Part shown: piece by piece, positions 7,353-64,000 of the stretch
How positions within the stretch are numbered: position 1 is the first letter of the stretch
Layout: each line of letters opens with the position of its first letter
DNA from: the human T2T-CHM13v2.0 reference genome, Homo sapiens
Assembly: GCA_009914755.4 (NCBI GenBank)
Contig: CP086569.2
Span: 11,872,001 to 11,936,000, forward strand
Direction: 5' to 3'
DNA length: 64,000 nucleotides
Notes under the pieces: generated by a model
Told to the model about the DNA's origin: nothing
What the model saw: only the letters and a program-made list of their open reading frames with translations
Databases searched by the model: none
Program-made: the position numbers and the translations under genes

Positions 7353-8006
7353 GATTCGAATGGAATGGAATCGAATGGAATGGAACGAATTGGAATGTAA
7401 TTGAATGGAGTCAAAAACAGTAGAAAGAAATAAAGTTTCATCGAATGATATCGAATGGAATTGAATGGAATGTACGTGAATGGAATGGACTGGAATGGAA
7501 TGGAGTGACATGTAACGGAATCGAAAGGAATGGAATCCAATGAAATGGAATTGAATGGAATAGAAATGAATAGAATGGAACGGAGATTAATGAAAAGATA
7601 TTAAAATAATGGAATGGAATTGAGTGGACACGAATGGAATGGACTGGAATGGAAAGGACTCGAATGAAATGGAGCGCATTAGAATGGACTCGAATGGAAT
7701 GGATTGGAGTGGAATGGTCTCGAATGGATTGGAAAGGAATGGAATGGAAAGGAATAGAATGGAATGTAATCAAATGGAACGAAATGGAATGGAATGGATT
7801 CGACTGGAGCAGAATTGAATGGAGTGGAATTGAATGGAATGGAATGCAATCGAATGGAATGGACACGAATCGAATAGTATGAACTGAAATGGCATAGAAT
7901 GGAATGGAATGGAATGGAATGGAATGGAACGGAATGGAATGGCATGGAATGGAATGGCATGGCATGGCATGGCATGGAATGGAATGGAATGAAATGGATT
8001 GGAATG
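7353..8006 (+). repeat. 654-bp intra-unit tandem duplication, copy 2 (unit 2).
   Basis: Same as above. Confidence 0.85.
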
Positions 8007-26500: not shown

Positions 26501-29112
26501 AAGGAATGGAATGGAATGGAGTGGACTCAAAAGGAATGGACTCGAAAGGAATGAAGTCCAACCAAATTGAATCAAATGGATTGGAGTCGAACAGAATGGA
26601 ATGGAATGTTGTGAACTCGACTGGAGTAGAGAGGAATGTAAAGGAATAGAATGGAATGTAATCAAATGGATTGCAAGTGAATGGAATCAAAAGTAATAGA
26701 AAGGAATGGAGTGTAAAGGGATGATATTGAATATAATGGAATGGAATGGAATTTAATGGAATGGAGACGAAGGAATGGACAGGAATGTAATGGACTCCAA
26801 TGGAATGGAATGGATCAAAATGGATTTGAACAGATTGGAATCGAACGGAATGGAATGCAATGGAATGGAATGGACTCGAATGGAGAAGAGACAAATGGAA
26901 TGGAAACGAATTCAATGGAATTGAAAAGAATAGGATGGAATGGCGTGTAATGGTAAGATACTAAGTGGAATGGAATTGAATGGAATGCAATGGACCCAAA
27001 TGTAATGCACTCGAAAGGAATATACTCAAATAGAATGGAATCGAAAGGAAAGGTCTCAAATGGAATTTATTCAATACAATGGAATCGAATGGAATGCAAT
27101 AGAATGGAATGGAATCGAATGTAATGGAATCAAATAGAATGGACCAGAATGGAATGGACTGCCATAGAACGGACTGCAGTGTAATGGATTGAATCCTAAA
27201 TCATTCAAATGGAATGGAATTGAATGGAATGGAATACAAAGGAATGGATAGGATTGAACTGGAATGGAATAGCATGGAATGCAACGGAGTGGAATGGAGT
27301 TGAATGAAGTGGAATGGAATCGATTGGAATGGAATCAAATGGAATGGACGGGAATGGAATGGACTGGAAGAGAACAGACTGGAATTTAATGGATTGCACT
27401 GTAATTGATTCAAATGGAATGGAATCGAATGGAATGTAATAAAATTGAAGGGATTTGAGTTCAATGCAATGGAATAGAATGGAATGCAAAGGAAAGGAAA
27501 GGTACGGAGTGAAATCGAGTGTAACGGAATCGAATGGAATGAAATGGAATGGAATGGACTCAAAAGAAATGGAAGAGGGACAAAACGGAATCGAACTGAT
27601 TGGAATCGAACGGAACGGAATGGAATGGAATGGTCTCCATTGGATCGGAGTAGAACGGGCTGGAATGGAATGGAATGAAATGGAATGGAAAGGAATAGAA
27701 TGGAATGGAATGGAATGGAATGGAATGGAATGGAAGGTAATGGAAAGATATTGAACGGATTGGAAAGGAATGGAATGGACCCTAATGGAATGGAATGGAA
27801 TTCAACAGAAACGAATGGAATGGACTGGAGTGAAATGGAGTCGAATGTAATTGACTGGAGTGGAATGGACTCGAAAGGAATGGACTCGAATAGAATGGAC
27901 TGGAATGGATTGTACTCGAATGGAGTGGAAAGGAATACAATGGATTCCACCAGATTGGAATGGAACAGAATGTAATGGAATGGAATGGAATGCAATGGAA
28001 TAGCTCCAATGGAATGGAGTCGAATGCAATGGAACAGAAAGGAAAGGAATTGAATGGAATTGAAAGGAATAGAACAAAATGGAGTGCAAAGGAAAGATAT
28101 CGAATGGAATGGATCGAAAAGAAATCGAATGGAATGGACAGGAATGGAATGGAATAGAATGGAATAGACAGGCGTGCAATGAAAACGAATGGAATGGAAA
28201 CGAATGGAATGCAATGGAAAGGAATGGAGTAGAATAAATACTATGGAATGGAATGGAGGCGAAAGGAAAAGAATGGATTGGAATGTCACCGAATGGAAAG
28301 CTATGGAATGGAAAGGAATGGATACGAATGGAATGGAATAGAAAGGAACGGAAAGGTAAAGAATGGAATGGAATCGGATAGAATGGAATGCAATGTAATG
28401 GAGTCGAATGGAAAATAATCGTGTAGAATGATATCGAATGGAATGGAATTGAATGGAATGGAATGGAATGGACTCGAATGGAATGTACTCAAATGGATTA
28501 GAATAGAATGGAATGGAACTAAACGTAATGAACTCGAATGGAATGGACAGAAATAGAATGGAAGAGAAAGGAATGGTATTGAATGGAATTTATTCGAATA
28601 GAGTGGAATTCAATGGAATGCAACAGTGTGGCATGGAATCAAATGGAATGGAATCGAATGGAATGGACCCGAGTGGAATGGACTCACATAGAACAGCCTC
28701 GAATGTAATGGATGACAATGTATTAGATTCGAAAGGACTGAAATCGAATGGAATGTAATCAAGTAGAACGGAATTGAATGCATGGAATGGCATAGAAAGT
28801 AACGCAATGGAATGGAATAGACTGGAATGGAATGGAATCGGATGGAATGTAATGAAATGTAATGGAAGGAATGCCATGGAATGGAATGGAATGGAATGCA
28901 ATGGGACGGTGTATAATGGAGTGCAATGGATTTCAGTGGAATGTAGTCCAAAGGAAAGAAATAGAATGGAATTCAATATAATGGAATGGCATCCAATGGC
29001 AAGGAATGGAGCGGACTCCAATGGAAACGACATGAAAGTAATATAATATAATGGAAAGGCATTGAACGAAATGGAATGCAATGGAGTTAAAAGGTAAAAT
29101 ATCGAATGGAAA
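23522..29112 (+). repeat. HOR unit 5: 5591 bp, subtype A, ~99.7% identical to unit 3.
   Basis: The 314-aa reverse-frame ORFs 12987..13931 and 24082..25026 differ at 3 residues. Landmarks are at 23522 and 29113. Confidence 0.85.
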
Positions 29113-32100
29113 AGAATTGAATGGACTCGAAAGGAATATAATGGAATGGAATGGACTCGAATGGAATGTACTAGAGTTGAATGGAATCGAATGGAATGGA
29201 AAACAATGGAAAGGAAAGGAAGGGAATTGAAAGGAAAGGAATAGAATGGAATGGAATCGGATGGAACAGAATTGAATGGAATGGAAACTAAAGGAATAGA
29301 ATAGAAAGGAATCGCATTGAATGGAATGGAATGGAATGGAATCAGATGGAACAGAAAGGAATGGAATAGAATCGAATGGAATGGCATCGAATGGATGGAA
29401 TGGAATGGAATGGAATAGAAAGGAATGGAATGGACTCGAATGGAATGTACTCAAATGGAATAGAATAGAATGGAATGGAAGTAAATATAATGGACTCGAA
29501 TGGAATGCATTGGAATAAATTGGAATTGAGTGTATTGGATTCGAATGGAAAGGAAAGGAATGGAATGGAATGGAAAGGAATGGAATGGAATGGATTCGAA
29601 TGGAATGGAATCGAATGGAATGGAACGAATTGGAATGTAATTGAATGGAGTCAAAAACAGTAGAAAGTAATAAAGTTTCATCGAATGATATCGAATGGAA
29701 TTGAATGGAATGTACGCGAAGGGAATGGACAGGAATGGAATGGAGTGACATGTAACGGAATCGAAAGGAATGGAATCCAATGAAATGGAATTGAATGGAA
29801 TAGAAATGAATAGAATGGAATGGAGATTAATGGAAAGATATTAAAATAATGGAATGGAATTGAGTGGACACGAATGGAAAGGACTGGAATGGAAAGGACT
29901 CGAATGAAATGGACCACATTAGAATGGACTCGAATGGAATGGATTGGAGTGGAATGGTCTCGAATGGATTGGAAAGGAATGGAATGCAAAGGAATAGAAT
30001 GGAATGTAATCAAATGGAACGAAATGGAATGGAATGGATTCGACTGGAGCAGAATTGAATGGAGTGGAATTGAATGGAATGGAATGCAATCGAATGGAAT
30101 GGACACGAATCGAATAGAATGAAATGAAAAGGCATAGAATGGAATGGAATGGAATGGAATGGAATGGAATGGATTGGAATGGGATGGGCCCAAAAGTAAT
30201 AGACTCAAATAAAAGGGACTCAAATAGAATGAACTGGAAAGAAACGGTCTCGAATGTAATTTATTCGAATAGAATGATATTGAATGGAATGCAACAGTAT
30301 GGAATGGTATCGCATAGAATGGAATAGAATAGAATGGAATGGAACGGAATGGAGTGCAATTGAACGGACTCAAATGCAATAAATTGCAATATAATTGATT
30401 CAAATGGAATGGAATCGAATAGAATGTAAACAAATGGAATGGAAGGCAATGCAATGGAAAGGAATCGAATGAAATGGAATAAATGGAATGGAATGGAATG
30501 GAAAGGACGCGAATATATTGGACTGTTAAGGAAAGGTGTCAAATCGAATTTATTCCAATAGAATGGAATCGAATGGAATGCAATACTATTGAATCGAATC
30601 GAATGGAATGGAATTGAATGGAATGGACAGGAATGGAATGAACTGGAAGTGAATGGACAGGAACGTAATATATTGCAATGTAATTTATTCAAATGGAATG
30701 GAATGCAATCGAATGGAATGGACTCGATTGGAATGGACTGGAGTGGAATGTACTCAAATGGAATGGCAAGGAATGGAATGGAATGGAATGGAAAGCAAAG
30801 GAATCTACTGGAATAGAATCGAACGGAACAGAAAGGAATGGAATGGAATGGAGTGGAATGGACTCGAATGGAATGTATTCGAATGTAATGGACCTAAAAA
30901 GGAATGGAATCCAATGGAATGGAATTGAATGGAATCAAAAGGAATAGAAAGGAATAGAGTGTAATTGAATATCGAAAGGAAGGGAATGGAATGAACTCGA
31001 ATGGAATGCACTGGAATGGAATGGACTCGATCAGAACGGACTGGAGAGGAATGTACACAAATGGAATGGAATGAAATGGAATGGAATGCAATGGAATTGA
31101 AAGGAACGGAATCAAATGGAATGGAATGGAATGGAATGGATTGGAATAGAATGTATTCAAATAAAATAGAATCGATGGGAATGCTATTGAATGAAAGGGA
31201 CTTGAATGGAATGGAAAGCAATGGAAGATATTGGAATCGAATGGCATCGAATGAAATGGAATGGAACGGAATGGAACGGAACCGAATGGAATGGAATGGA
31301 CTCAAATGTAACGGACACCAATGGAATCGACTGAAATATAATAGTGTCGAAAGGAATGGCCTCGAGCGGAATTTATTTGAATAGAATGGAATCAAATGGA
31401 ATACAATACCATTGAATGGAATCGAATGGTATGGAATCGAATGGAATGTAATCAAATGGAATGGAACGGAATTCAATATAATGGAGTAGAATGGAATGTA
31501 TTGGAAAGGAGCAGAGTGGAATCAAGTGGAATGGAATCGAGTGGAATGGAATCAATGGGAACAAAATCGAATTGAATGGACTTGAATGGAACTGACTCGA
31601 AAGGAATGGACTGGAACAAAAAGGAATCAAATGGACAGGAATGGGATGGAATGGACACGAATGGAATGGAGTCAAATGCAAACGCATCGAATGGAATGGA
31701 TTCAAATGGAATGCAATGGAATGGAAGAGAAAGGAAGAGAATGGAATTGAGAGTAATGGAAAGATATCGATTGGAATGAAATGGAATGGAAAGGAATTGA
31801 ATGGAAAGGAAGGGAGTGGAAAGAAATGGATTGGAATGGAACGGTCTCCAATGGAATGGACTGGAGTGGAATGGAATCGAATGGAATGAAAAGAATGGAA
31901 CGGAATGGAACGGAAAGGAATAGAATGTTATGGAATCCGATTGGACAGAATGGAATGGAATGGAGTTTCATGAAATGGAGTCGAATAGAGTGGCATCAAA
32001 AGGAATGGAATGGAATGGAGTGGACTCAAAAGGAATGGACTCGAAAGGAATGGAGTCCAACCAAATTGAATGAAATGGATTGGAGTCGAACAGAATGGAA

Positions 32101-34611
32101 TGGAATGGAATGAACTCGACTGGAGTAGAGAGGAATGTAAAGGAATAGAATGGAATGTAATCAAATGGATTGCAAGTGAATGGAATCAAAAATAATAGAA
32201 AGGAATGGAGTGTAAAGGGATCATATTGAATATAATGGAATGGAATGGAATTTAATGGAATGGAGTTGAAGGAATGGACAGGAATGTAATGGACTCCAAT
32301 GGAATGGAATGGATGAAAATGGATTTGAACAGATTGGAATCGAACGGAATGGAATGCAATGGAATGGAATGGACTCGAATGGAGAAGAGACAAATGGAAT
32401 GGAAACGAATTCAATGGAATTGAAAAGAATAGGATGGAATGGCGTGTAATGGTAAGATACTAAATGGAATGGAATTGAATGGAATGGAATGGACCCAAAT
32501 GTAATGCACTCGAAAGGAATATACTCAAATAGAATGGAATCGAAAGGAAAGGTCTCAAATGGAATTTATTCAATACAATGGAATCGAATGGAATGCAATA
32601 GAATGGAATGGAATCGAATGTAATGGAATCAAATAGAATGGACCAGAATGGAATGGACTGCCATAGAACGGACTGCAGTGTAATGGATTGAATTCTAATT
32701 CATTCAAATGGAATGGAATTGAATGGAATGGAATCCAATGGAATGGATAGGATTGTACTGGAATGGAATAGCATGGAATGCAACGGAGTGGAATGGAGTT
32801 GAATGAAGTGGAATGGAATCGATTGGAATGGAATCAAATGGAATGGACGGGAATGGAATGGACTGGAAGAGAACAGACTCGAATTTAATGGATTGCACTG
32901 TAATTGATTCAAATGGAATGGAATCGAATGGAATGTAATAAAATTGAAGGGATTTGAGTTCAATGCAATGGAATAGAATGGAATGCAAAGGAAAGGAAAG
33001 GAACGGAGTGAAATCGAGTGTAATGGAATCGAATGGAATGAAATGGAATGGAATGGACTCAAAAGAAATGGACGAGGGACAAAACGGAATCGAACTGATT
33101 GGAATCGAACGGAACGGAATGGAATGGAATGGTCTCCATTGGATTGGAGTAGAACGGACTGGAATGGAATGGAATGAAATGGAATGGAAAGGAATAGAAT
33201 GGAACGGAATGGAATGGAATGGAATGGAATGGAAGGTAATGGAAAGATATCGAACGGATTGGAAAGGAATGGAATGGACCCTAATGGAATGGAATAGAAT
33301 TCAACAGAAACGAATGGAATGGACTGGAGTGAAATGGAGTCGAATGTAATTGACTGGAGTGGAATGGACTCGAAAGGAATGGACTCGAATAGAATGGACT
33401 GGAATGGATTGTACTCGAATGGAGTGGAAAGGAATACAATGGATTCCACCAGATTGGAATGGAACAGAATGTAATGGAATGGAATGGAATGCAATGGAAT
33501 AGCTCCAATGGAATGGAGTCGAATGCAATGGAACAGAAAGGAAAGGAATTGAATGGAATTGAAAGGAATAGAACAAAATGGAGTGCAAAGGAAAGATATC
33601 GAATGGAATGGATCGAAAAGAAATCGAATGGAATGGACAGGAATGGAATGGAATAGAATGGAATAGACTGGCGTGCAATGAAAACGAATGGAATGGAAAC
33701 GAATGGAATGCAATGGAAAGGAATGGAGTAGAATAAATACTATGGAATGGAATGGAGGCGAAAGGAAAAGAATGGATTGGAATGTCACCGAATGGAAAGA
33801 TATGGAATGGAAAGGAATGGATACGAATGGAATGGAATAGAAAGGAACGGAAAGGTAAAGAATGGAATGGAATCGGATAGAATGGAATGCAATGTAATGG
33901 AGTCGAATGGAAAATAATCGTGTAGAATGATATCGAATGGAATGGAATTGAATGGAATGGAATGGAATGGACTCGAATGGAATGTACTCAAATGGATTAG
34001 AATAGAATGGAATGGAACTAAACGTAATGAACTCGAATGGAATGGACACAAATAGAATGGAAGAGAAAGGAATGGTATTGAATGGAATTTATTCGAATAG
34101 AGTGGAATTCAATGGAATGCAACAGTGTGGCATGGAATCAAATGGAATGGAATCGAATGGAATGGACCCGAGTGGAATGGACTCACATAGAACAGCCTCG
34201 AATGTAATGGATGACAATGTATTAGATTCGAAAGGACTGAAATCGAATGGAATGTAATCAAGTAGAACGGAATTGAATGCATGGAATGGCATGGAAAGTA
34301 ACGCAATGGAATGGAATAGACTGGAATGGAATGGAATCGGATGGAATGTAATGAAATGTAATGGAAGGAATGCCATGGAATGGAATGGAATGGAATGCAA
34401 TGGGACGGTGTATAATGGAGTGCAATGGATTTCAGTGGAATGTAGTCCAAAGGAAAGAAATATAATGGAATTCAATAAAATGGAATGGCATCCAATGGCA
34501 AGGAATGGAGCGGACTCCAATGGAAACGACATGAAAGGAATATAATATAATGAAATGGCATTGAACGAAATGGAATGCAATGGAGTTAAAAGGTAAAATA
34601 TCGAATGGAAA
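29113..34611 (+). repeat. HOR unit 6: 5499 bp, subtype B, near-identical to unit 4.
   Basis: The 223-aa reverse-frame ORFs 19715..20386 and 30805..31476 are identical. Landmarks are at 29113 and 34612. Confidence 0.85.
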
Positions 34612-37600
34612 AGAATTGAATGGACTCGAAAGGAATATAATGGAATGGAATGGACTCGAATGGAATGTACTAGAGTTGAATGGAATCGAATGGAATGGAA
34701 AACAATGGAAAGGAAAGGAAGGGAATTGAAAGGAAAGGAATAGAATGGAATGGAATCGGATGGAACGGAATTGAATGGAATGGAAACTAAAGGAATAGAA
34801 TAGAAAGGAATCGCATTGAATGGAATGGAATGGAATGGAATCAGATGGAACAGAAAGGAATGGAATAGAATCGAATGGAATGGCATCGAATGGATGGAAT
34901 GGAATGGAATGGAATGGAATAGAAAGGTATGGAATGGACTCGAATGGAATGTACTCAAATGGAATAGAATAGAATGGAATGGAAGTAAATATAATGGACT
35001 CGAATGGAATGCATTGGAATAAATTGGAATTGAGTGTATTGGATTCGAATGGAAAGGAATGGAATGGAATGGAATGGAGTGGAATGGATTGGAATGGAAT
35101 GGAATCGAATGGAATTTAACGAATTGTAATGTAATTGAATGGAGTCAAAAACGGTAGAAAGAAATAGAGTTTCATCGAATGATATCGAATGGAATTGAAT
35201 GGAATGTACGCGAATGGAATGGACCGGAATGGAATGGAGTGACATGTAACGGAATCGAAAGGAATGGAATCCAATGAAATGGAATTGAATGGAATAGAAA
35301 TGAATAGAATGGAATGGAGATTAATGGAAAGATATTAAAATAATGGAATGGAATTGAGTGGATACGAATGGAATGGACTGGAATGGAAAGGACTCGAATG
35401 AAATGGAGCGCATTAGAATGGACTCGAATGGAATGGATTGGAGTGGAATGGTCTCGAATGGATTGGAAAGGAATGGAATGGAAAGGAATAGAATGGAATG
35501 TAATCAAATGGAACGAAATGGAATGGAATGGATTCGACTGGAGCAGAATTGAATGGAGTGGAATTGAATGGAATGGAATGCAATCGAATGGAATGGACAC
35601 GAATCGAATAGAATGAAATGAAATGGCATAGAATGGAATGGAATGGAATAGAAAGGAATGGAATGGAATGGAACGGAATGGAATGGCATGGAATGGAATG
35701 GCATGGCATGGAATGGAATGGAATGGAATGGAATGAAATGGATTGGACGGGGATGGGCCCAAAAGTAATAGACTCAAATAAAAGGGACTCAAATAGAATG
35801 AAGTGGAAAGAAACGGTCTCGAATGTAATTTATTCGAATAGAATGATATTGAATGGAATGCAATAGTATGGAATGGTATCGAATATAATGGAATAGAATG
35901 CAATGGAATGGAACGGAATGGAGTGCAATTGAACGGACTCAAATGCATTAAATTGCAACATAATTGATTCAAATGGAATGGAATCGAATAGAATGTAAAC
36001 AAATGGAATGGAAGGCAATGCAATGGAAAGCAATCGAATGAAATGGAATAAATGGAATGGAATGGAATGGAATGGAAAGGACGCGAATATATTGGACAGT
36101 TAAGGAAAGGTGTCAAATCGAATTTATTCCAATAGAATGGAATCGAATGGAATGCAATACTATTGAATCGAATCGAATGAAATGGAATTGAATGGAATGG
36201 ACAGGAATGGAATGACCTGGAAGTGAATGGACAGGAACGTAGTATATTGCAATGTAATTTATTCTAATGGAATGGAATGCAATCGAATGGAATGGACTCG
36301 ATTGGAATGGACTGGAGTGGAATGGACTCAAATGGAATGGCAAGGAATGGAATGGAATGGAATGGAAAGCAAAGGAATCTACTGGAATAGAATCGAACGG
36401 AACAGAATGGAATGGAATGTAATGGAGTGGAATGGACTCGAATGGAATGTATTCGAATGTAATGGACCTAAAAAGGAATGGAATCCAATGGAATGGAATT
36501 GAATGGAATCAAAAGGAATAGAAAGGAATAGAGTGTAATTGAATGATATCGAAAGGAAGGGAATGGCATGAACTCGAATGGAATGCACTGGAATGGAATG
36601 GACTCGATCAGAACGGACCGGAGAGGAATGTACACAAATGGAATGGAAACGAATGGAATGGAATGAAATGGAATGGAATGAAATGGAATTGAAAGGAACG
36701 GAATCAAATGGAATGGAATGGAATGGAATGGATTGGAATAGAATGGATTCAAATAAAATAGAATCGATGGGAATGGTATTGAATGAAAGGGACTTGAATG
36801 GAATGGAAAGCAATGGAAGATATTGGAATCGAATGGCATCGAATGAAATGGAATGGAACGGAATGGAACGGAACCGAATGGAATGGAATGGACTCAAATG
36901 TAATGGACACCAATGGAATCGACTGAAATATAATAGTATTGAAAGGAATGGCCTCGAGCGGAATTTATTTGAATAGAATGGAATCAAATGGAATACAATA
37001 CCATTGAATGGAATCGAATGGAATGGAATCGAATGGAATGTAATCAAATGGAATGGAACGGAATTCAATATAATGGAGTAGAATGGAATGCATTGGAAAG
37101 GAGCAGAGTGGAATCAAGTGGAATGGAATCGAGTGGAATGGAATCAATGGGAACAAAATCGAATTGAATGGACTTGAATGGAATTGACTCGAAAGGAACG
37201 GACTGGAACAAAAAGGAATCAAATGGACAGGAATGGGATGGAATGGACACGAATGGAATGGAGTCAAATGCAAACGCATCGAATGGAATGGATTGAAATG
37301 GAATGCAGTGGAATGGAACAGAAAGGAAGAGAATGGAATTGAGAGTAATGGAAAGATATCGATTGGAATGAAATGGAATGGAAAGGAATTGAATGGAAAG
37401 GAATGGAGTGGAAAGAAATGGATTGGAATGGAATGGTCTCCAATGGAATGGACTGGAGTGGAATGGAATCGAATAGAATGAAAAGAATGGAACGGAATGG
37501 AACGGAAAGGAATAGAATGTTATGGAATCCGATTGGACAGAATGGAATGGAATGGAGTTTCATGAAATGGAGTCGAATAGAGTGTCATCAAAAGGAATGG

Positions 37601-40208
37601 AATGGAATGGAGTGGACTCAAAAGGAATGGACTCGAAAGGAATGAAGTCCAACCAAATTGAATCAAATGGATTGGAGTCGAACAGAATGGAATGGAATGG
37701 AATGAACTCGACTGGAGTAGAGAGGAATGTAAAGGAATAGAATGGAATGTAATCAAATGGATTGCAAGTGAATGGAATCAAAAATAATAGAAAGGAATGG
37801 AGTGTAAAGGGATGATATTGAATATAATGGAATGGAATGGAATTTAATGGAATGGAGACGAAGGAATGGACAGGAATGTAATGGACTCCAATGGAATGGA
37901 ATGTATCAAAATGGATTTGAACAGATTGGAATCGAACGGAATGGAATGCAATGGAATGGAATGGACTCGAATGGAGAAGAGACAAATGGAATGGAAACGA
38001 ATTCAATGGAATTGAAAAGAATAGGATGGAATGGCGTGTAATGGTAAGATACTAAATGGAATGGAATTGAATGGAATGGAATGGACCCAAATGTAATGCT
38101 CTCGAAAGGAATATACTCAAATAGAATGGAATCGAAAGGAAAGGTCTCAAATGGAATTTATTCAATACAATGGAATCGAATGGAATGCAATAGAATGGAA
38201 TGGAATCGAATGTAATGGAATCAAATAGAATGGACCAGAATGGAATGGACTGCCATAGAACGGACTGCAGTGTAATGGATTGAATTCTAATTCATTCAAA
38301 TGGAATGGAATTGAATGGAATGGAATCCAATGGAATGGATAGGATTGTACTGCAATGGAATAGCATGGAATGCAACGGAGTGGAATGGAGTTGAATGAAG
38401 TGGAATGGAATCGATTGGAATGGAATCAAATGGAATGGACGGGAATGGAATGGACTGGAAGAGAACAGACTCGAATATCATGGATTGCAATGTAATTGAT
38501 TCAAATGGAATGGAATCGAATGGAATGTAATAAAATTGAAGGGATTGGAGTTCAATGCAATGGAATTGAATGGAATGCAAAGGAAAGGAAAGGCACGGAG
38601 TGAAATCGAGTGTAATGGAATCGAATGGAATGAAATCGAATGGAATGGACTCAAAAGAAATGGACGAGGGACAAAACGGAATCGAACTGATTGGAATCGA
38701 ATGGAACGGAATGGAATGGAATGGACTCCATTGGATGGGAGTAGAACGGATTGGAATGAAATGGAATGGAAAGGAATAGAATGGAATGGAAAGGAAGGGA
38801 AGGTAACGGAAAGATATCGAACGGATTGGAAAGGAATGGAATGGACGCTAATGGAATGGATTGGAATTCAACAGAAACGAATGGAATGGACTGGAGTGAA
38901 ATGGAGTCGAATGTAATTGACTGGAGAGGAATGGACTCGAAAGGAATGGACTCGAATAGAATGGACTGGAATGGATTGTACTCGAATTGAGTGGAAAGGA
39001 ATAAAATGGATTCCACCAGATTGGAATGGAACAGAATGTAATGGAATGGAATGGAATGCAATGGAATGGCTCGAATGGAATGGAGTCGAATGCAATGGAA
39101 GAGAAAGGAAAGGAATTGAATGGAATTGAAAGTAATAGAATTAAAAGGAGTGCAAAGGAAAGATATCGAATGGAATGGATCGAAAAGAAATAGAATGGAA
39201 TGGACATGAATGGAATGGAATAGAATGGAATAGACTGGCGTGCAATGAAAACGAATGGAATGGAAACAAATGGAATGGAATGGAAAGGAATGGAGTAGAA
39301 TAAATACTATGGAATGGAATGGAATGGAATGGAATGGAATGGAATGGAGGCGAAAGGAAAAGAATGGATTGGAATGTCAACGAATGGAAAGATATGGAAT
39401 GGAAAGGAATGGATACGAATGGAATGGAATAGAAAGGAATGGAAAGGTAAAGAATGGAATGGAATCGGACAGAATGGAATGCAATGTAATGGAGTCGAAT
39501 GGAAAATAATCGAGTAGAATGATATCGAATGGAATGGAATTTAATGTAATGGAATGGAATGGAATGGACTCGAATGGCATGTACTCAAATGGATTAGAAT
39601 AGAATGGAATGGAACTAAACGTAATGAACTCGAATGGAATGGACACAAATAGAATGGAAGAGAAAGAAATGGTATTGAATGGAATTTATTCGAATAGAAT
39701 GGAATTCAATGGAATGCAACAGTGTGGCATGGAATCAAATGGAATGGAATCGAATGGAATGGACCCGAGTGGAATGGACTCACATAGAACAGCCTCGAAT
39801 ATAATGGATGACAATGTATTAGATTCGAAAGGACTGAAATCGAATGGAATGTAATCAAATAGAACGGAATTGAATGCATGGAATGGCATAGAAAGTAATG
39901 CAATGGAATGGAATAGACTGGAATGGAATGGAATCGGATGGAATGTAATGAAATGTTATGGAAGGAATGCTATGGAATGGAATGGAATGGAATACAATGG
40001 GACGGTGTATAATGGAGTGCAATGGATTTCAGTGGAATGTAGTCAAAAGGAATGAAATAGAATGGAATTCAATATAATGGAATGGCACCCAATGGCAAGG
40101 AATGGAGCGGACTCCAATGGAAAAGACATGAAAGGAATATAATATAATGGAATGGCATTGAACGAAATGGAATGCAATGGAGTTAAAAGGTAAAATATCG
40201 AAGGGGAA
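34612..40208 (+). repeat. HOR unit 7: 5597 bp. Subtype A up to ~38.2 kb, then switching to the diverged HOR variant seen in units 8-9.
   Basis: 37832..38041 still matches unit 5 (1 aa difference). From 38296 onward the sequence (e.g. MHSIQFHCIELQSLQFYY...) matches units 8/9 (56226, 61783) rather than units 3-6. Confidence 0.7.
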
Positions 40209-42160
40209 AGAATTGAATGGACTCGAAAGGAATATAATGGAATGGAATGGACTCGAATGGAATGTACTAGGGTTGAATGGAATCGAAAGGAATGGAAAAC
40301 AATGGAAAGGAAAGGAAGGGAATTGAAAGGAAAGGAATGGAATGGAATCGGATGGAACAGAATTGAATGGAATGGAAACTAAAGGAATAGAATAGAAAGG
40401 AATGGCATTGAATGGAATGGAAATGAATGGAATCAGATGGAACAGAAAGGAATGGAATAGAATCGAATGGAATGGCATCGAATGGATTGGAATGGAATGT
40501 AATGGAATGGAATGGAAAGGAATGGAATGGACTCGAATGGAATGTACTCAAATGGAATAGAATAGAATGGAATGGAAGTAAATATAATGGACTCGAGTGG
40601 AATGGATTGGAAGAAATTGGAATTGAATGTATTGGATTCGAATGGAAAGGAATGGAATGGAATGGAATGGAATGGAATGGAATGGAAAGCAATGGAATGG
40701 ATTCGAATGGAATGGAACGAATTGGATTGTAATTGAATGGAGTCGAAAACAGTAGAAAGAAAAGAAGTTTAATCGAATGATATCGAATGGAATTGAATGG
40801 AATGTACGCGAATGGAATGGACTGGAATGGAATGGAATGGAATGACATGTAATGGAATCGAAAGGAATGGAATCGAATGAAATGGAATTGAATGGAATAG
40901 AAAGGAATAGAATGGAATGGAGTTTAATGGAAAGATATTAAAAGTAATGGAATGGAATTGAGTGGACACAAATGGAAAGGAATGGAATGGAAAGGACTCG
41001 AATGAAATGGACCGCATTAGAATGGACTCGAATGGAACGGATTGGTGTGGAATGGTCTCGAATGGATTGGAAACGAATGGAATGGAAAAGAATAGAATGG
41101 AATGTAATCAAATGGAACGAAATGGAATGGAATGGATTCAACTGGAACAGAATTGAATGGAGTGGAATTGAATGGAATGGAATGCAATCGAATGGAATGG
41201 ACACGAATCGAATAGAATGAAATGATATGGCATAGAATGGAATGGAATGGAATGGAATGGAATGGAATGGAATGGAATGGCATGGAATGGAATGGAATGG
41301 CATGGAATGAAATGGATTGGAATGGGATGGGCCCAAAAGTAATGGACTAAAATAAAAGGGACTCAAATAGAATGAATTGTAAAGAAACGTTCTCGAATGT
41401 AATTTATTCGAATAGAATGATATTGAATGGAATGCAATAGTATGGAATGGTATCGAATAGAATGGAATGGAATGGAACTTAATGGAGTGCATTTGAACGG
41501 ACTCAAATGCAATAAATGGCAATATAATTGATTCAAATGGAATGGAATCGAATAGAATGTAAACAAATGGAATGGAAGGCAATGCAATGGAAAGGAATCG
41601 AATGAAATGGAATAAATGGGATGGAATCGAATGGAGAGGACACGAATATAATGGAATGTCAAGGAAAGGTCTCGAATCGAATTTATTCCAATAGAATGGA
41701 ATCGAATGGAATGCAATACTATTGAATCAAATCGAATGGAATGGAATTGAATGGAATGGACAGGAATGGAATGAACTGGAAGTGAATAGACAAGAACATA
41801 ATATATTGCAATGTAATTTATTCAAATGGAATGGAATGCAATAGAATGGAATGGACGCGATTGCAATGGACTGGAGTTGAATGGACTGAAATGGAATTTA
41901 AACGAATGTAATGGAATGGAACGGAAAGCAAAGGAATCTACCGGAATGGAATCGAACGGAACAGAAAGGAATGGAATGGAGTGGAATGGACTCGAATGGA
42001 ATGTATTCGAATGTAATGGACCGGAAAGGAATGGAATCCAATGGAATGGAATTGAATGGAATCAAAAGGAATAGAAAGGAATAGAGTGTAATTGAATGAT
42101 ATCGAATGGAAGGGAATGGAATGAAGTCGAATGGAATGCACTGGAATGGAATGGACTCAA

Positions 42161-43528
42161 TCAGAACGGACTGGAGAGGAATGTACACAAATGGAATGGA
42201 AACGAATGGAATGGAATGAAATGGAATGGAATGCAATGGAATTGAAAGGAACGGAATCAAAAGGAATGGAATGGAATGGATTGGAATAGAATGGATTCAA
42301 ATAAAATAGAATCGATTGCAATGGTATTGAATGGAAGGGACTTGAATGGAATGGAAAGCAAAGGAAGATATTGGAATCGAATGGCATCGAATGAAATGGA
42401 ATGGAACGGAATGGAACGGACCCGAATGGAATGGAATGGACTCAAATGTAATGGACTCGAATGGAATCGACTGAAATATAATAGACTCGAAAGGAATGGC
42501 CTCGAGCGGAATTTATTTGAATAGAATGGAATGAAATGGAATACAATAGTATGGAATGGAATCGAATGGAATGGAATCGAATGGAATGTAATCAAAGGGA
42601 ATGCAACGGAATTCAATATAATGGAGTAGAATGGAATGCATTGGAAAGGAGCAGAGTGGAATCGAGTGGATTGGAATCGAGTGGAATGGAATCAAAGGGA
42701 ACAAAATCAAATTGAATGGACTTGAATGGAATTGAGTCGAAAGGAATTGACTCGAAAGGAATGGACTGGAACAAAAAGGAATCAAATGGACAGGAATGGA
42801 ATGGAATGGACTCGAATGGAATGGAGTCAAATGCAAACGCATCGAATGGAATGGATTCAAATGGAATGCAATTGAATGGAATAGAAAGGAAGAGAATGGA
42901 ATTGAGAGTAATGGAAAGATATCGATTGGAATGAAATGGAATGGAAAGGAATTGAATGGAAAGGAAAGGACTCGAAAGAAATGGGTTGGAAAGGAATGGT
43001 CACCAATGGAATGGACTGGAGTGGAATGGAATCGAATGGAATGAAAAGAATGGAACGGAATGGAACGGAAAAGAATAGAATGTTATGGAATCCGATTGGA
43101 CAGAATGGAATGGAATGCAGTTTCATGAAATGGAGTCGAATAGAGTGGCATGAAAAGGAATGGAATGGAGTGGACTCAAAAGGAATGGACTCGAAAGGAA
43201 TGGAGCCGAACCAAATTGAATCAAATGGATTGGAGTCGAACAGAATGGAATGGAATGGAATGAACTCGACTGGAGTAGAGAGGAATGAAAAGGAATAGAA
43301 TGGAATGTAATCAAATGGATTGCAAGTGAATGGAATCAAAAATAATAGAAAGGAATGGAGTGTAAAAGGATGATATTTAATTAAATGGAATGGAAAGGAA
43401 TTTAATGGAATGGAGTCGAAGGAATGGACAGGAATGTAATGGACTCCAATGGAATGGAATGGATCAAAATGAATTTGAACAGATTGGAATCGAACGGAAT
43501 GGAATGCAATGAAATGGAATGGACTCGA
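42161..43528 (+). repeat. 1.37 kb sub-block copy 1 (subtype a; native position in the unit).
   Basis: Starts at the canonical offset (~1950) of unit 8. The 82-aa ORF at 42796 ends ...KERTRKKWVGKEWSPMEWTGVEWNRME. Confidence 0.8.
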
Positions 43529-44881
43529 TCAGAACGGACTGGAGAGGAATGTACACAAATGGAATGGAAACAAAAGGAATGGAATGAAATGGAATTGAAA
43601 GGAACGGAATCAAATGGAATGGAATGGAATGGATTGGAATAGAATGGATTCAAATAAAATAGAATCGATTGCAATGGTATTGAATGGAAGGGACTTGAAT
43701 GGAATGGAAAGCAATGGAAGATATTGGAATAGAATGGCATCGAATGAAATGGAATGGAACGGAATGGAACGGACCGGAATGGAATGGAATGGACTCAAAT
43801 GTAATGGACTCGAATGGAATCGACTGAAATATAATAGACTCGAAAGGAATGGCCTCGAGCGGAATTTATTTGAATAGAATGGAATCATATGGAATACAAT
43901 AGTAGGGAATGGAATCGAATGGAATGTAATCGAATGGAATGTAATCAAATGGAATGGAACGGAATTCAATATAATGGAGTAGAATGGAATGCATTGGAAA
44001 GGAGCAGAGTGGAATCGAGTGGATTGGAATCGAGTGGAATGGAATCAAAGGGATCGAAATCGAATTGAATGGACTTGAATGGAATTGAGTCGAAAGGAAT
44101 TGACTCGAAAGGAATGGACTGGAACAAAAAGGAATCAAATGGACAGGAATGGAATGGAATGGACTCGAATGGAATGGAGTCAAATGCAAACGCATCGAAT
44201 GGAATGGATTCAAATGGAATGCAATTGAATGGAATAGAAAGGAAGAGAATGGAATTGAGAGTAATGGAAAGATATCGATTGGAATGAAATGGAATGGAAA
44301 GGAATTGAATGGAATGGAATGGACTCGAAAGAAATGGATTGGAATGGAATGGTCTCCAAAGGAATGGACTGGAGTGGAATGGAATCGAATGGAAAGAAAA
44401 GAATGGAACGGAATGGAACGGAAAGGAATAGAATGTTATGGAATCCGATTGGACAGAATGGAATGGAATGCAGTTTCATGAAATGGAGTCGAATAGAGTG
44501 GCATCAAAAGGAATGGAATGGAGTGGACTCAAAAGGAATGGACTCGAAAGGAATGGAGTCGAACCAAATTGAATCAAATGGATTGGAGTCGAACAGAATG
44601 GAATGGAATGGAATGAAGTCGACTGGAGTAGAGAGGAATGAAAAGGAATAGAATGGAATGTAATCAAATGGATTGCAAGTGAATGGAATCAAAAATAATA
44701 GAAAGGAATGGAGTGTAAAGGGATGATATTGAATTAAATGGAATGGAATGGAATTTAATGGAATAGAGCCGAAGGAATGGACAGGAATGTAATGGACTGT
44801 AATGGAATGGAATGGATCAAAATGGATTTGAACAGATTGGAATCGAACGGAATGAAATGCAATGAAATGGAATGGACTCGA
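43529..44881 (+). repeat. 1.37 kb sub-block copy 2 (subtype b, 1353 bp).
   Basis: The junction is at 43529. The 110-aa ORF at 44149 (...MEWTRKKWIGMEWSPKEW...MERKGIECYGIRLDRMEWNAVS) marks subtype b. Confidence 0.8.
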
Positions 44882-46259
44882 TCAGAAAGGACAGGAGAGG
44901 GATGTACACAAATGGAATGGAAACGAAAGGAATGGAATGAAATGGAATGGAATGCAATGTAATTGAAAGGAACGGAATCAAATTGAACGGAATGGAATGG
45001 AATGGAATGGATTGGAATAGAATGGATTCAAATAAAATAGAATCGATTGCAATGGTATTGAATGGAAAGGACTTGAATGGAATGGAAAGCAATGGAAGAT
45101 ATTGGAATCGAATGGCATCGAATGAAAGGGAATGGAACGGAATGGAACGGAGCGGAATGCAACGGAATGGACTCAAATGTAATGGACTCGAATGGAATCG
45201 ACTGAAATATAATAGACTCGAAAGGAATGGCCTCGAGCGGAATTTATTTGAATAGAATGGAATCAAATGGAATACAATAGTATGGAATGGAATCGAATGG
45301 AATGGAATCGAATGGAATGTAATCAAATGGAAGGGAACAGAATTCAATATAATTTAGTAGAATGGAATGCATTGGAAAGGAGCAGAGTGGAATCGAGTGG
45401 ATTGGAATCGAGTGGAATGGAATCAAAGGGAACGAAATCGAATTGAATGGACTTGAATGGAATTGAGTCGAAAGGAATTGACTCGAAAGGAATGGACTGG
45501 AACAAATAGGAATCAAATGGACAGGAATGGAATGGAATGGACTCGAATGGAATGGAGTCAAATGCAAACGCATCGAATGGAATGGATTCAAATGGAATGC
45601 AATTGAATGGAATAGAAAGGAAAAGAATGGAATTGAGAGTAATGGAAAGATATCGATTGGAATGAAATGGAATGGAAAGGAATTGATTGGAAAGGAAAGG
45701 ACTCGAAAGAAATGGGTTGGAATGGAATGGTTTCCAATGGAATGGACAGGAGTGGAATGGAATCGAATGGAATGAAAAGAATGGAACGGAATGGAACGGA
45801 AAGGAATAGAATGTTATGGAATCCGATTGGACAGAATGGAATGGAATGCAGTTTCATGAAATGGAGTCGAATAGAGTGGCATCAAAAGGAATGGAATGGA
45901 GTGGACTCAAAAGGAATGGACTCGAATGGAATGGAGTCGAACCAAATTGAATCAAATGGATTGGAGTCGAACAGAATGGAATGGAATGGAATGAAGTCGA
46001 CTGGAGTAGAGAGGAATGAAAAGGAATAGAATGGAATGTAATCAAATGGATTGCAAGTGAATGGAATCAAAAATAATAGAAAGGAATGGAGTGTAAAAGG
46101 ATGATATTTAATTATATGGAATGGAATGGAATTTAATGGAATGGAGTCGAAGGAATGGACAGGAATGTAATGGACTCCAATGGAATGGAATGGATCAAAA
46201 TGGACTTGAACAGATTGGAATCGAACGGAATGGAATGCAATGAAATAGAATGGACTCGA
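44882..46259 (+). repeat. 1.37 kb sub-block copy 3 (subtype a, 1378 bp).
   Basis: The junction is at 44882. The 82-aa ORF at 45527 is a-type. Confidence 0.8.
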
Positions 46260-47632
46260 TCAGAACGGACTGGAGAGGAATGTACACAAATGGAATGGAA
46301 ACGAATGGAATGGAATGAAATGGAATGGAAGGCAATGGAATTGAAAGGAACGGAATCAAATGGAATGGAATGGAATGGAATGGATTGGAATAGAATGGAT
46401 TCAAATAAAATAGAATCGATTGCAAAGGTATTGAATGGAAGGGACTTGAATGGAATGGAAAGCAATGGAAGATATTGGAATCGAATGGCATCGAATGAAA
46501 TGGAATGCAACGGAATGGAACGGACCCGAATGGAATGGAATGGACTCAAATGTAATGGACTCGAATGGAATCGACTGAAATATAATAGACTCGAAAGGAA
46601 TGGCCTCGAGCGGAATTTATTTGAAAAGAATGGAATCATATGGAATACAATAGTAGGGAATGGAATCGAATGGAATGGAATCGAATGGAATGCAATCAAA
46701 TGGAATGGAACGGAATTCAATGTAATGGAGTAGAATGGAATGCATTGGAAAGGAGCAGAGTGGAATCGAGTGGATTGGAATCGAGTGGAATGGAATCAAA
46801 GGGAACGAAATCGAATTGAATGGACTTGAATGGAATTGAGTCGAAAGGAATTGACTCGAAAGGAATGGACTGGAACAAAAAGGAATCAAATGGACAGGAA
46901 TGGAATGGAATGGACTCGAATGGAATGGAGTCAAATGCAAACGCATCGAATGGAATGGATTCAAATGGAATGCAATTGAATGGAATAGAAAGGAAGAGAA
47001 TGGAATTGAGAGTAATGGAAAGATATCGATTGGAATGAAATGGAATGGAAAGGAATTGAATGGAATGGAATGGACTCGAAAGAAATGGATTGGAATGGAA
47101 TGGTCTCCAATGGAATGGACTGGAGTGGAATGGAATCGAATGGAAAGAAAAGAATGGAACGGAATGGAGCGGAAAGGAATAGAATGTTATGGAATCCGAT
47201 TGGACAGAATGGAATGGAATGCAGTTTCATGAAATGGAGTCGAATAGAGTGGCATCAAAAGGAATGGAATGGAGTGGACTCAAAAGGAATGGACTCGAAA
47301 GGAATGGAGTTGAACCAAATTGAATCAAATGGATTGGAGTCGAACAGAATGGAATGGAATTGAATGAACTCGACTGGAGGGGAGAGGAATGAAAAGGAAT
47401 AGAATGGAATGTAATCAAATGGATTGCAAGTGAATGGAATCAAAAATAATAGAAAGGAATGGAGTGTAAAGGGATGATATTGAATTAAATGGAATGGAAT
47501 GGAATTTAATGGAATGGAGTCGAAGGAATGGACAGGAATGTAATGGACTCCAATGGAATGGAATGGATCAAAATGGATTTGAACAGATTGGAATGGACCG
47601 GAATGGAATGCTATGAAATGGAATGGACTCGA
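46260..47632 (+). repeat. 1.37 kb sub-block copy 4 (subtype b, 1373 bp).
   Basis: The junction is at 46260. The 110-aa ORF at 46900 is b-type. Confidence 0.8.
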
Positions 47633-49010
47633 TCAGAACGGTCTGGAGAGGAATGTACATAAATGGAATGGAAACGAATGGAATGGAATGAAATGGAATG
47701 GAATGCAATGGAATTGAAAGGAACGGAATCAAATGGAACGGAATGGAATGGAATGGAATGGATTGGAATAGAATGGATTCAAATAAAATAGAATCGATTG
47801 CAATGGTATTGAATGGAAGGGACTTGAATGGAATGGAAAGCAATGGAAGATATTGGAATAGAATGGCATCGAATGAAATGGAATGGAACGGAATGGAACG
47901 GACCGGAATGGAATGGAATAGACTCAAATGTAATGGACTCGAATGGAATCGACTGAAATATAATAGACTCGAAAGGAATGGCCTCGAGCGGAATTTATTT
48001 GAATAGAATGGAATCAAATGGAATACAATAGTATGGAATGGAATCGAATGGAATGGAATCGAATGGAATGTAATCAAATGGAATGGAACAGAATTCAATA
48101 TAATGGAGTAGAATGGAATGCATTGGAAAGGAGCAGAGTGGAATCGAGTGGATTGGAATCGAGTGAAATGGAATCAAAGGGAACGAAATCGAATTGAATG
48201 GACTTGAATGGAATTGAGTCGAAAGGAATTGACTCGAAAGGAATGGACTGGAACAAAAAGGAATCAAATGGACAGGAATGGAATGGAATGGACTCGAATG
48301 GAATGGAGTCAAATGCAAACGCATCGAATGGAATGGATTCAAATGGAATGCAATTGAATGGAATAGAAAGGAAGAGAATGGAATTGAGAGTAATGGAAAG
48401 ATATCGATTGGAATGAAATGGAATGGAAAGGAATTGAATGGAAAGGAAAGGACTCGAAAGAAATGGGTTGGAATGGAATGGTCTCCAATGGAATGGACTG
48501 GAGTGGAATGGAATCGAATGGAATGAAAAGAATGGAACGGAATGGAACGTAAAGGAATAGAATGTTATGGAATCCGATTGGTCAGAATGGAATGGAATGC
48601 AGTTTCATGAAATGGAGTCGAATATAGTGGCATCAAAAGGAATGGAATGGAGTGGACTCAAAAGGAATGGACTCGAAAGGAATGGAGTCGAACCAAATTG
48701 AATCAAAGAGATTGGAGTCGAACAGAATGGAATGGAATGGAATGAACTCGACTGGAGTAGAGAGGAATGAAAAGGAATAGAATGGAATGTAATCAAATGG
48801 ATTGCAAGTGAATTGAATCAAAAATAATAGAAAGGAATGGAGTGTAAAAGGATGATATTTAATTAAATGGAATGGAAAGGAATTTAATGGAATGGAGTCG
48901 AAGGAATGGACAGGAATGTAATGGACTCCAATGGAATGGAATGGATCAAAATGAATTTGAACAGATTGGAATCGAACGGAATGGAATGCAATGAAATGGA
49001 ATGGACTCGA
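47633..49010 (+). repeat. 1.37 kb sub-block copy 5 (subtype a, 1378 bp).
   Basis: The junction is at 47633. The 82-aa ORF at 48278 is a-type. Confidence 0.8.
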
Positions 49011-63693: not shown

Positions 63694-64000
63694 AGAATTG
63701 AATGGACTCGAATGGAATATAATGGAATGGAATGGACTCGAATGGAATGTACTAGAGTTGAATGGAATCGAATGGAATGGAAAACAATGGAAAGGAAAGG
63801 AAGGGAATTGAAAGGAAAGGAATAGAATGGAATGGAATCGGATGGAACAGAATTGAATGGAATGGAAACTAAAGGAATAGAATAGAAAGGAATGGCATTG
63901 AATGGAATAGAAATGAATGGAATCAGATGGAACAGAAAGGAATGGAATAGAATCGAATGGAATGGCATCGAATGGATTGGAATGGAATGTAATGGAATGG
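63694..64000 (+). repeat. HOR unit 10: a partial unit truncated by the window end.
   Basis: The unit-start landmark 'agaattgaatggactcgaatggaatataatgg' is at 63694. Confidence 0.7.

What the first reader, a model, noticed from the sequence alone, without database searches (positions are those of the whole stretch)
38100..38600. Boundary between a highly homogenised HOR domain and a diverged domain, falling mid-unit
From 12.4 to ~38.2 kb, alternate units are essentially identical. The 314-aa repeat-frame ORFs at 12987 and 24082 differ at 3 positions, and the 223-aa ORFs at 19715 and 30805 are identical. Beyond ~38.3 kb, corresponding blocks in units 7-tail, 8 and 9 differ from one another by several percent; the 81-aa ORFs at 39609, 57539 and 63124 differ at 4–5 positions. 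They also differ from the upstream domain: 38296 reads MHSIQFHCIELQSLQFYY... where 27205 reads MHSILFHCIELKSLQFYY.... The switch happens inside unit 7, not at a unit boundary. That is what is expected at the edge of a recently homogenised (recently amplified) sub-array abutting older flanking copies.
Basis: seen in the sequence. Interest (0 to 1): 0.5.

Follow-up and report, generated by a model that had tools for sequence, protein, structure and literature searches.

The report
Hybrid repeat unit in human satellite III
Inside a human satellite-III (GGAAT-type) DNA array, a recently duplicated 28-kb block of repeat units ends part-way through one unit and continues, in register, into older and more diverged units; this is real, but it is the ordinary footprint of unequal exchange in satellite DNA.

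Summary
The whole window is pentameric (GGAAT)n satellite arranged in multi-kb units. Alternating A (5591 bp) and B (5504 bp) units give an 11.09-kb period. Copies one period apart differ by 0.20% (21.3–32.2 kb) and 0.83% (32.2–38.25 kb), then by 3.9% beyond 38.25 kb.

Unit 7 (34612–40203) is a chimera. At 79 of 79 diagnostic sites up to 38201 it carries the state of units 1–6. At 34 of 35 sites from 38477 it carries the state of units 8–9 (0 of 10,000 permutations). No indel lies at the switch. Its head is 0.95% from A units. Its tail is 2.2–2.4% from units 8/9 and 3.9% from A units.

- The youngest duplication is one period (about 10.2–32.2 kb) and does not reach the boundary.
- A mirror junction lies in unit 2 at 9778–9873.
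- "Unit 8" is 17.9 kb, because a 1378-bp sub-block is repeated ten times (42129–55863).
- The amino-acid differences quoted at 38296 are changes private to units 3 and 5.

The "ORFs" are repeat artefacts. A diagnostic 24-mer points to HSat3A3, the Y-chromosome subfamily. Local variation in period and layered expansion in these arrays are already described, so this is ordinary.

The parts
1..9778 (.). Left flank: 6.2-kb unit variant. It comprises U1 (1–6223) and the head of U2 (6224–9778). Each carries a 644-bp insertion/duplication (450–1093 and 6668–7311) that is absent from all other units.
   Evidence: U1–U2 divergence is 1.2–1.3%.
9778..9873 (.). Left junction interval. U2 switches from U1-like to B-like (U4/U6-like). 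This is the left edge of the homogenised block and also falls mid-unit.
   Evidence: mostly U1 states up to 9778, then 23 consecutive B states from 9873. U2/U4 differences drop from 10–13 to 1–4 per 500 columns.
9873..38201 (.). Homogenised A/B block with an 11.09-kb period. It runs U2 tail, U3 (A, 12427–18017), U4 (B, 18018–23521), U5 (A, 23522–29112), U6 (B, 29113–34611) and U7 head (A-type, 34612–38201).
   Evidence: U3–U5 0.22%, U4–U6 0.26–0.64%, U7 head–U3/U5 0.95%, A versus B ~2%.
21303..32203 (.). Second copy of the youngest duplication. It is 10.9 kb, about one period, and differs by 0.20% from the sequence 11.09 kb upstream (~10.2–21.1 kb).
   Evidence: Poisson segmentation, best BIC model.
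32203..38253 (.). Older layer, 0.83% from the sequence one period upstream. This layer, not the youngest duplication, is what abuts the boundary.
38201..38477 (.). The switch interval of the finding. Here U7 changes from the U1–U6 clade to the U8/U9 clade, in register. The 276 bp contain no indel and no clade-diagnostic site.
   Evidence: 79/79 then 34/35 sites; 0/10,000 permutations; change-point at 38253; no indel in the interval.
38477..40203 (.). U7 tail, C-type. It shares with U8/U9 about 34 substitutions and several indels, for example a 25-bp insertion at 39309–39333 and deletions at about 38747 (10 bp) and 38778 (15 bp).
   Evidence: The tail is 2.2–2.4% from U8/U9 and 3.7–3.9% from U1–U6.
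40204..58133 (.). U8, a C-type unit expanded to 17.9 kb by internal amplification.
42129..55863 (.). Ten tandem copies of a 1353–1378-bp sub-block that is single-copy in every other unit (in U7 at 36576–37938). The copies are 96–98% alike, so the amplification is old.
   Evidence: Two tandem copies are also seen in external human-derived contigs.
58134..64000 (.). U9 (58134–63690, 5557 bp, C-type) and the start of U10.

Best explanation
The window is a piece of a human satellite-III array: diverged (GGAAT)n organised in multi-kb nested tandem repeat units. It probably belongs to the Y-specific subfamily HSat3A3.

A ~28.5-kb island of alternating A/B units (11.09-kb period) sits between a 6.2-kb unit variant on the left and older C-type units on the right. 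The feature at 38.20–38.48 kb is the right-hand edge of that island. It is an in-register homologous junction inside unit 7, which joins an A-type head to a C-type tail.

Such junctions arise when misaligned repeat units exchange sequence by homologous recombination. The exchange can be unequal crossing-over, which on the male-specific Y would be between sister chromatids or within one chromatid. It can also be a long non-reciprocal, conversion-like transfer. The island was then lengthened by at least one later in-register duplication of exactly one period (second copy 21.3–32.2 kb).

Shown here: the pentamer satellite, the unit structure, the chimeric unit, the position and significance of the switch, and the divergence tiers. 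Inferred: the recombination mechanism, the order of events and the chromosomal origin.
For: Satellite identity:
- The window has 5/10/15-bp periodicity only, with no 23/26-bp signal.
- Twenty contigs from human-associated (skin) metagenome assemblies match at 96–98.4%.
- Of 14 subfamily-specific 24-mers (Table 1 of PMC4022460), only the HSat3A3 one matches exactly, 14 times.

Chimera:
- Diagnostic sites show 79/79 then 34/35, with 0/10,000 permutations reaching the observed max chi-square.
- The head is 0.95% from A units and 5.0% from C units. The tail is 3.9% from A units and 2.2–2.4% from C units, while U8–U9 is 2.7%.
- The junction is in register: no indel in 38201–38477 and unit 7 is 5592 bp long.
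- There is no switch back: U8, U9 and U10 are all C-type. This fits a domain edge, not a short conversion patch.

Layers and context:
- Divergence tiers are 0.20%, 0.83% and 3.88%. The 0.20% tier is 10.9 kb, about one 11.09-kb period.
- A mirror junction lies in U2.
- The literature describes HSat2/3 nested tandem repeats whose periodicity varies locally ('expanding hyper-locally') and a layered-expansion model (10.1101/2021.07.12.452052). It also describes Y heterochromatin evolving by unequal exchange, with sister-chromatid exchanges seen by Strand-seq (10.1101/2022.12.01.518724).
Against: - The two island edges are 28.33–28.70 kb apart, or 2.55–2.59 periods. The 0.83% layer spans only ~6.3 kb (0.57 period). 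Simple whole-period unequal crossovers alone therefore do not reproduce the structure. A conversion-like transfer or a later truncating exchange is also needed.
- Between ~37.7 and 38.2 kb, unit 7 carries neither A-specific nor C-specific states. The A-to-C transition may therefore involve two breakpoints, or lineage-specific changes in U3/U5.
- The 'clades' are defined only from the nine units in this window. In external contigs the diagnostic states near the junction occur in many combinations, and three contigs show the same combination as unit 7. Those contigs are collapsed short-read assemblies.
- The Y/HSat3A3 assignment rests on one 24-mer.
- No reads are available to rule out a misassembly.
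Confidence: 0.8

Rival explanations
1. The boundary is the end of a long (~6.3 kb) non-reciprocal, gene-conversion-like transfer between positions one period apart (U2 tail + U3 head versus U6 tail + U7 head). It is not the end of an unequal-crossover duplication.
For: The 0.83% layer covers only ~0.57 period, and it has sharp edges at homologous lag (9.78–9.87 kb and 38.2–38.5 kb). A whole-period duplication would give a full period of similarity.
Against: A 6.3-kb tract is long for gene conversion. The same pattern could come from a duplication later truncated by another exchange. The left part of the layer is hidden under the younger duplication.
Confidence: 0.3
2. The junction is an assembly artefact: a false join or collapse between two similar satellite regions at a stretch of shared identity.
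For: The switch lies in 276 bp without diagnostic differences, inside a ~1-kb stretch of low between-clade divergence. An assembler could mis-join in such a place. The array is highly repetitive.
Against: The units on both sides carry many private differences, and the join is in register with normal unit length. A second, independent junction (U2) and graded divergence tiers look biological. Three external contigs carry the same state combination across the junction (weak evidence).
Confidence: 0.06
3. There is no real boundary. The apparent switch is chance clustering of differences, or an alignment artefact in low-complexity sequence.
For: Pentamer satellites misalign easily. The clade-state table from multi-HSP mapping of short contigs was indeed unreliable.
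Against: The segmentation BIC, the permutation test and agreement between the BLAST and MAFFT alignments all support the boundary. One anchor 51-mer occurs exactly once per unit.
Confidence: 0.01
4. The boundary marks a functional domain edge, for example a chromatin or transcription boundary that imposes different mutation or repair regimes, and not a difference in copy age.
For: None found in the sequence. Base composition and strand skew are constant across it.
Against: No motif, no Rfam match, no PRDM9 motif and only weak inverted repeats at the junction. The clade switch is explained by ancestry alone.
Confidence: 0.02

Closest known systems
Nested tandem repeats (NTRs) of human satellites 2/3 with locally varying periodicity (Altemose et al., 'Complete genomic and epigenetic maps of human centromeres', 10.1101/2021.07.12.452052)
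   Same: The units are multi-kb and built from diverged (CATTC)n. The periodicity changes along the array: 6.2 kb, 11.09 kb (5.59+5.50), 1.38 kb and 5.56 kb all occur within 64 kb. This is the 'hyper-local' expansion described there.
   Different: That work reports periodicities for arrays or sub-windows. Here the exact junctions are resolved to 95 bp and 276 bp. The specific array could not be looked up.
Layered expansion and hybrid higher-order repeat units from unequal crossing-over in alpha-satellite arrays (classical model, from my own knowledge; layered expansion is cited in 10.1101/2021.07.12.452052)
   Same: A younger, homogeneous layer is flanked by older, more diverged copies. The junctions are in register and give chimeric units.
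   Different: The units here are not made of discrete ~171-bp monomers. The array is pericentromeric HSat3, not a centromere-forming alpha satellite. The island is tiny, at 2.6 periods.
DYZ1 (HSat3A6) 3.6-kb NTR on Yq12 and the pericentromeric Y HSat3/DYZ17 arrays (10.1101/2022.12.01.518724; 10.1101/2022.12.01.518658)
   Same: Both are Y-linked HSat3 organised as kb-scale NTRs that evolve by unequal exchange with iterative tandem duplications. The HSat3A3-specific 24-mer occurs once per unit here.
   Different: Unit lengths differ (5.5–6.2 kb against 3.6 kb), and the DYZ1 (HSat3A6) 24-mer has no exact match. Assignment to the Y pericentromere was not verified by mapping.
pTRS-47, a 1366-bp HSat3A4 repeat unit of acrocentric chromosomes (mentioned in PMC4022460)
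   Same: Its period is similar to that of the 1353–1378-bp sub-block amplified in U8.
   Different: Only the length is similar.

Membership tests
Human satellite III (HSat3, sensu Altemose 2014/2022) | Derived from the pentamer (CATTC)n / (GGAAT)n | tested here: met
   TRF reports one array over 2–64000 with periods 10 and 15. Autocorrelation peaks fall only at multiples of 5. Exact GGAAT covers 31% of bases, all on one strand.
Human satellite III (HSat3, sensu Altemose 2014/2022) | Lacks the 23/26-bp structure of HSat2 | tested here: met
   Self-match is 0.135 at lag 23 and 0.32 at lag 26, against 0.63–0.66 at lags 5, 10 and 15. No HSat2 subfamily 24-mer matches, even with 2 mismatches.
Human satellite III (HSat3, sensu Altemose 2014/2022) | Human origin | tested here: inconclusive
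   Twenty contigs match at 96–98.4% over 1.5–5.7 kb. Two are named as human skin metagenome assemblies in their record titles; the origin of the other 18 accessions is not stated. There were 0 hits in bacterial/archaeal genomes. No human or ape assembly could be searched, so a close ape relative is not formally excluded.
Classical satellite III sensu Prosser et al. 1986 (own knowledge) | Interspersed 10-mer A(T/C)TCGGGTTG / CAACCCGA(A/G)T | tested here: not met
   There are 0 matches on either strand. From memory, this motif is a property of some HSat3 subfamilies only. The result argues against those subfamilies, not against HSat3 as now defined.
HSat3A3 (Y-chromosome-specific subfamily) | Presence of subfamily-specific 24-mers | tested here: met
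   CTTTACACTCCATTCCTTTCTATT gives 14 exact matches, one per unit plus several of the 1378-bp copies. The 13 other subfamily 24-mers give 0 exact matches (24-mers from Table 1 of PMC4022460). Only one of the many specific 24-mers was available.
HSat3A3 (Y-chromosome-specific subfamily) | Location on the Y chromosome | not testable with these tools
   No human assembly is available to map against.
Nested tandem repeat (NTR) | Multi-kb tandem unit composed of diverged short repeats without discrete equal-length monomers | tested here: met
   Units of 5.5–6.2 kb are repeated head to tail at 95.6–99.8%. Within a unit only pentamer periodicity is present.
Higher-order repeat in the alpha-satellite sense | Unit made of a fixed number of discrete monomers of similar length | tested here: not met
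   No monomer level exists between 5–15 bp and 1.4–5.5 kb. One HOR-like hallmark is present one level up: alternate units (U3–U5 0.22%) are much closer than adjacent ones (U3–U4 ~2%).
Hybrid unit from in-register unequal homologous exchange | Single switch of ancestry within a unit, without indel, with no switch back | tested here: met
   Sites run 79/79 N then 34/35 C. There are 0 indels in 38201–38477. The downstream units are all C-type.
Hybrid unit from in-register unequal homologous exchange | Direct evidence of the exchange event (parental arrays, reciprocal product, or a pedigree/phylogeny showing the change) | not testable with these tools
   This needs other Y haplotypes or pedigrees.

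The most novel reading that the evidence does not exclude
The A/B island and its two hybrid junctions (9.78–9.87 kb and 38.20–38.48 kb) might be a lineage-specific, very recent expansion in the Y-chromosome pericentromeric HSat3 array. If so, its copy number and 0.2%/0.8% layers could be dated on the Y phylogeny. The ~6.3-kb partial-period layer would then be direct evidence of kb-scale non-reciprocal transfer between satellite units on a non-recombining chromosome.
Probability: 0.12. Interest if true: 0.3.

Novelty: already known. Interest (0 to 1): 0.1.

Why it matters
It matters little on its own. It is a clean, base-resolved example of how HSat3 nested tandem repeats turn over. Within 64 kb there are a young one-period duplication, an older partial-period layer, two in-register hybrid units and an old 10-copy sub-block amplification. 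If the window is from the Y pericentromere, the junctions could serve as markers for dating satellite turnover on the Y phylogeny, and for asking whether crossover-like or conversion-like sister-chromatid events dominate. The phenomenon itself is established: local homogenisation, layered expansion and varying periodicity.

Tried and rejected
- **Coding reading of the 'ORFs'.** All six frames carry long overlapping ORFs of pentamer-repeat peptides. They are artefacts and were used only as a proxy for DNA identity.
- **Rfam.** No family reached its gathering score in the window.
- **Sequence features at the junction.** Only three weak inverted repeats (72–79% complementary) were found. The PRDM9-type motif CCNCCNTNNCCNC has 0 matches in the window.
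- **Single whole-period amplification model.** The edges are 2.55–2.59 periods apart and the 0.83% layer is 0.57 period, so this model was rejected.
- **Unit 7 as simply B-like after the switch.** Rejected. It matches B only in ~37.7–38.4 kb and then follows U8/U9.
- **Polarising N versus C states with external contigs by multi-HSP mapping.** This was unreliable for short contigs. I replaced it with anchored alignments, which showed many state combinations and did not polarise the clades.
- **Bacterial/archaeal genome collection.** No hit.
- **Unit lengths of HSat3 subfamilies.** Altemose's 2022 review was not in the library, so the 5.5/6.2/11.1-kb periods could not be matched to a named array.
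- **pTRS-47.** The 1366-bp unit resembles the 1378-bp sub-block in length only. The HSat3A4 24-mer is absent.

Full report
**What the window is**

Tandem Repeats Finder reports one array from 2 to 64000 with consensus GAATGGAATG. GC content (0.37–0.39) and GC skew (+0.56 to +0.65) are constant throughout. Self-matching peaks only at multiples of 5 bp, with no signal at 23 or 26 bp. This is a (GGAAT)n / (CATTC)n satellite of the HSat3 type, not HSat2. The classical 10-mer CAACCCGA(A/G)T is absent.

A 39-mer next to the finding recovered 20 contigs from the metagenome collection, two of them named as human skin metagenome assemblies. They align at 96–98.4% over up to 5.7 kb. The same 39-mer found nothing in bacterial or archaeal genomes.

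Table 1 of Altemose et al. 2014 (PMC4022460) prints 14 subfamily-specific 24-mers. Only the HSat3A3 one matches exactly: 14 times, once per unit and in several sub-block copies. HSat3A3 is described as Y-specific. The Y carries an HSat3 array and the DYZ17 array next to the centromere (10.1101/2022.12.01.518658). The Y assignment is therefore likely but rests on one marker.

**Unit structure**

The structure comes from self-BLAST, a 500-bp block scan and a MAFFT alignment of units.

| Unit | Coordinates | Notes |
|---|---|---|
| U1 | 1–6223 | 6.2 kb; 644-bp insertion at 450–1093 |
| U2 | 6224–12426 | 6.2 kb; 644-bp insertion at 6668–7311 |
| U3 | 12427–18017 | type A, 5591 bp |
| U4 | 18018–23521 | type B, 5504 bp |
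| U5 | 23522–29112 | type A |
| U6 | 29113–34611 | type B |
| U7 | 34612–40203 | chimera (see below) |
| U8 | 40204–58133 | 17.9 kb |
| U9 | 58134–63690 | 5557 bp |
| U10 | 63691–64000 | partial |

A 1353–1378-bp sub-block is single-copy in every other unit. In U8 it is present as ten tandem copies (42129–55863) that are 96–98% alike. [quoted passage not shown]

**Check of the observation**

The ORFs are repeat artefacts, because all six frames are open.

Poisson segmentation of the gapped alignment at lag ~11.09 kb has its best BIC with five segments. The first, 18303–18503 (20%), is a misaligned stretch at the 644-bp insertion and is ignored:

| Segment (second-copy coordinates) | Divergence |
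|---|---|
| 18.5–21.3 kb | 2.07% |
| 21.3–32.2 kb | 0.20% |
| 32.2–38.25 kb | 0.83% |
| 38.25–41.55 kb | 3.88% |

The change-point at about 38.25 kb is therefore real.

**What the switch is**

There are 115 sites where U1–U6 share one state and U8+U9 share another. U7 has the U1–U6 state at all 79 scorable sites up to 38201. It has the U8/U9 state at 34 of 35 sites from 38477 on; the exception is 39167. Max chi-square is 109, and none of 10,000 permutations reaches it.

- The head of U7 is 0.95% from U3/U5 and 5.0% from U8/U9.
- The tail of U7 is 3.9% from U3/U5 and 2.2–2.4% from U8/U9, which differ from each other by 2.7%.
- No indel lies in the 276-bp switch interval, and U7 has normal length.

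U7 is therefore a chimera that joins two sequence clades in register. All units downstream are of the second clade, so this is a domain edge and not a short patch.

There is fine structure within the transition. U7 shares A-specific states up to 37308, with a possible last one at 37858, and none after that. From about 37.7 to 38.2 kb it carries neither A-specific nor C-specific states. Every other unit, and all 20 external contigs, carry the U7 state there.

**The block as a whole**

- U2 is also a chimera: U1-like up to 9778 and B-like from 9873. The A/B island therefore runs from about 9.8 to 38.3 kb.
- That length is 2.55–2.59 periods, not an integer.
- The 0.20% tier is 10.9 kb, about one 11.09-kb period. 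This is what a single in-register tandem duplication would give, with the junction near 21.2 kb.
- The 0.83% tier covers only ~6.3 kb. It needs either a long non-reciprocal transfer between positions one period apart, or a duplication later truncated by another exchange. I cannot separate these two.
- The downstream domain is older by the same yardstick: 2.2–2.8% between 5.56-kb units and 2–4% among the 1.38-kb copies.
- Most external contigs are closer to U8/U9 than to U1–U7 head. This fits C-type units being nearer the bulk of the array and the A/B island being a local novelty.

**Mechanism**

The best-supported mechanism is in-register homologous exchange between misaligned units, by unequal crossing-over and/or conversion-like transfer. 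If the array is on the male-specific Y, the exchange must be between sister chromatids or within one chromatid. [quoted passage not shown] The junction carries no special motif and no Rfam family.

**Caveats**

- The two 'clades' are defined from the nine units of this window.
- In external, collapsed short-read contigs the diagnostic states around the junction occur in many combinations, including U7's.
- An assembly chimera cannot be excluded without reads. The graded tiers, the second junction and the in-register structure argue against it.

**Verdict**

The phenomenon is the known behaviour of HSat2/3 nested tandem repeats and of satellite arrays in general, so interest is low.

Noticed in passing
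window 42129-55863: Ten tandem copies of a 1353–1378-bp sub-block sit inside unit 8, which makes that unit 17.9 kb. The sub-block is single-copy in all other units. The copies are 96–98% alike, with patches of near-identity at lags of 3–5 copies, so the amplification is old and partly re-homogenised. External human-derived contigs L006, L010, L015 and L016 hold two full tandem copies, and L012 holds a partial plus a full copy.
   Followed up: yes
window 9778-9873: There is a second mid-unit junction. Unit 2 switches from U1-like to B-like (U4/U6-like). This is the left edge of the homogenised block.
   Followed up: yes
window 450-1093 and 6668-7311: A 644-bp insertion, which is a tandem duplicate of the adjacent ~654 bp, is present only in units 1 and 2. 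It defines a 6.2-kb unit variant on the left of the window.
   Followed up: partly
window ~10200-21300 versus 21303-32203: The youngest event in the window is a single 11.09-kb (one A+B period) tandem duplication at 0.20% divergence. It does not reach the 38.2-kb boundary.
   Followed up: yes
window 16100-16162 and 27195-27257: Five substitutions cluster within 63 bp. They are shared by U3 and U5 only and are absent from all other units and from 20 external contigs. Further A-specific changes follow downstream. This may be a small conversion patch from a donor outside the window, or a clustered mutation in the A lineage.
   Followed up: partly
window 3811, 10009, 15600, 21104, 26695, 32194, 37786, 44697, 47448, 50204, 51582, 54333, 55711, 61268 (minus strand): These are exact matches to the most common HSat3A3-specific 24-mer (Y-chromosome subfamily). 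None of the other 13 HSat2/3 subfamily 24-mers matches exactly.
   Followed up: partly
whole window, both strands: Long overlapping ORFs (up to 362 aa in the two regions listed) are open in all six frames because the pentamer repeat rarely makes stop codons. They are not genes.
   Followed up: yes
window 37410-38477: This is the least diverged part of the unit between the two clades: 3 diagnostic sites in 1067 bp, against about 20 per kb elsewhere. The switch interval lies inside it. Long uninterrupted identity may favour exchange there, but a breakpoint would be localised to such a gap about 16% of the time by chance.
   Followed up: partly
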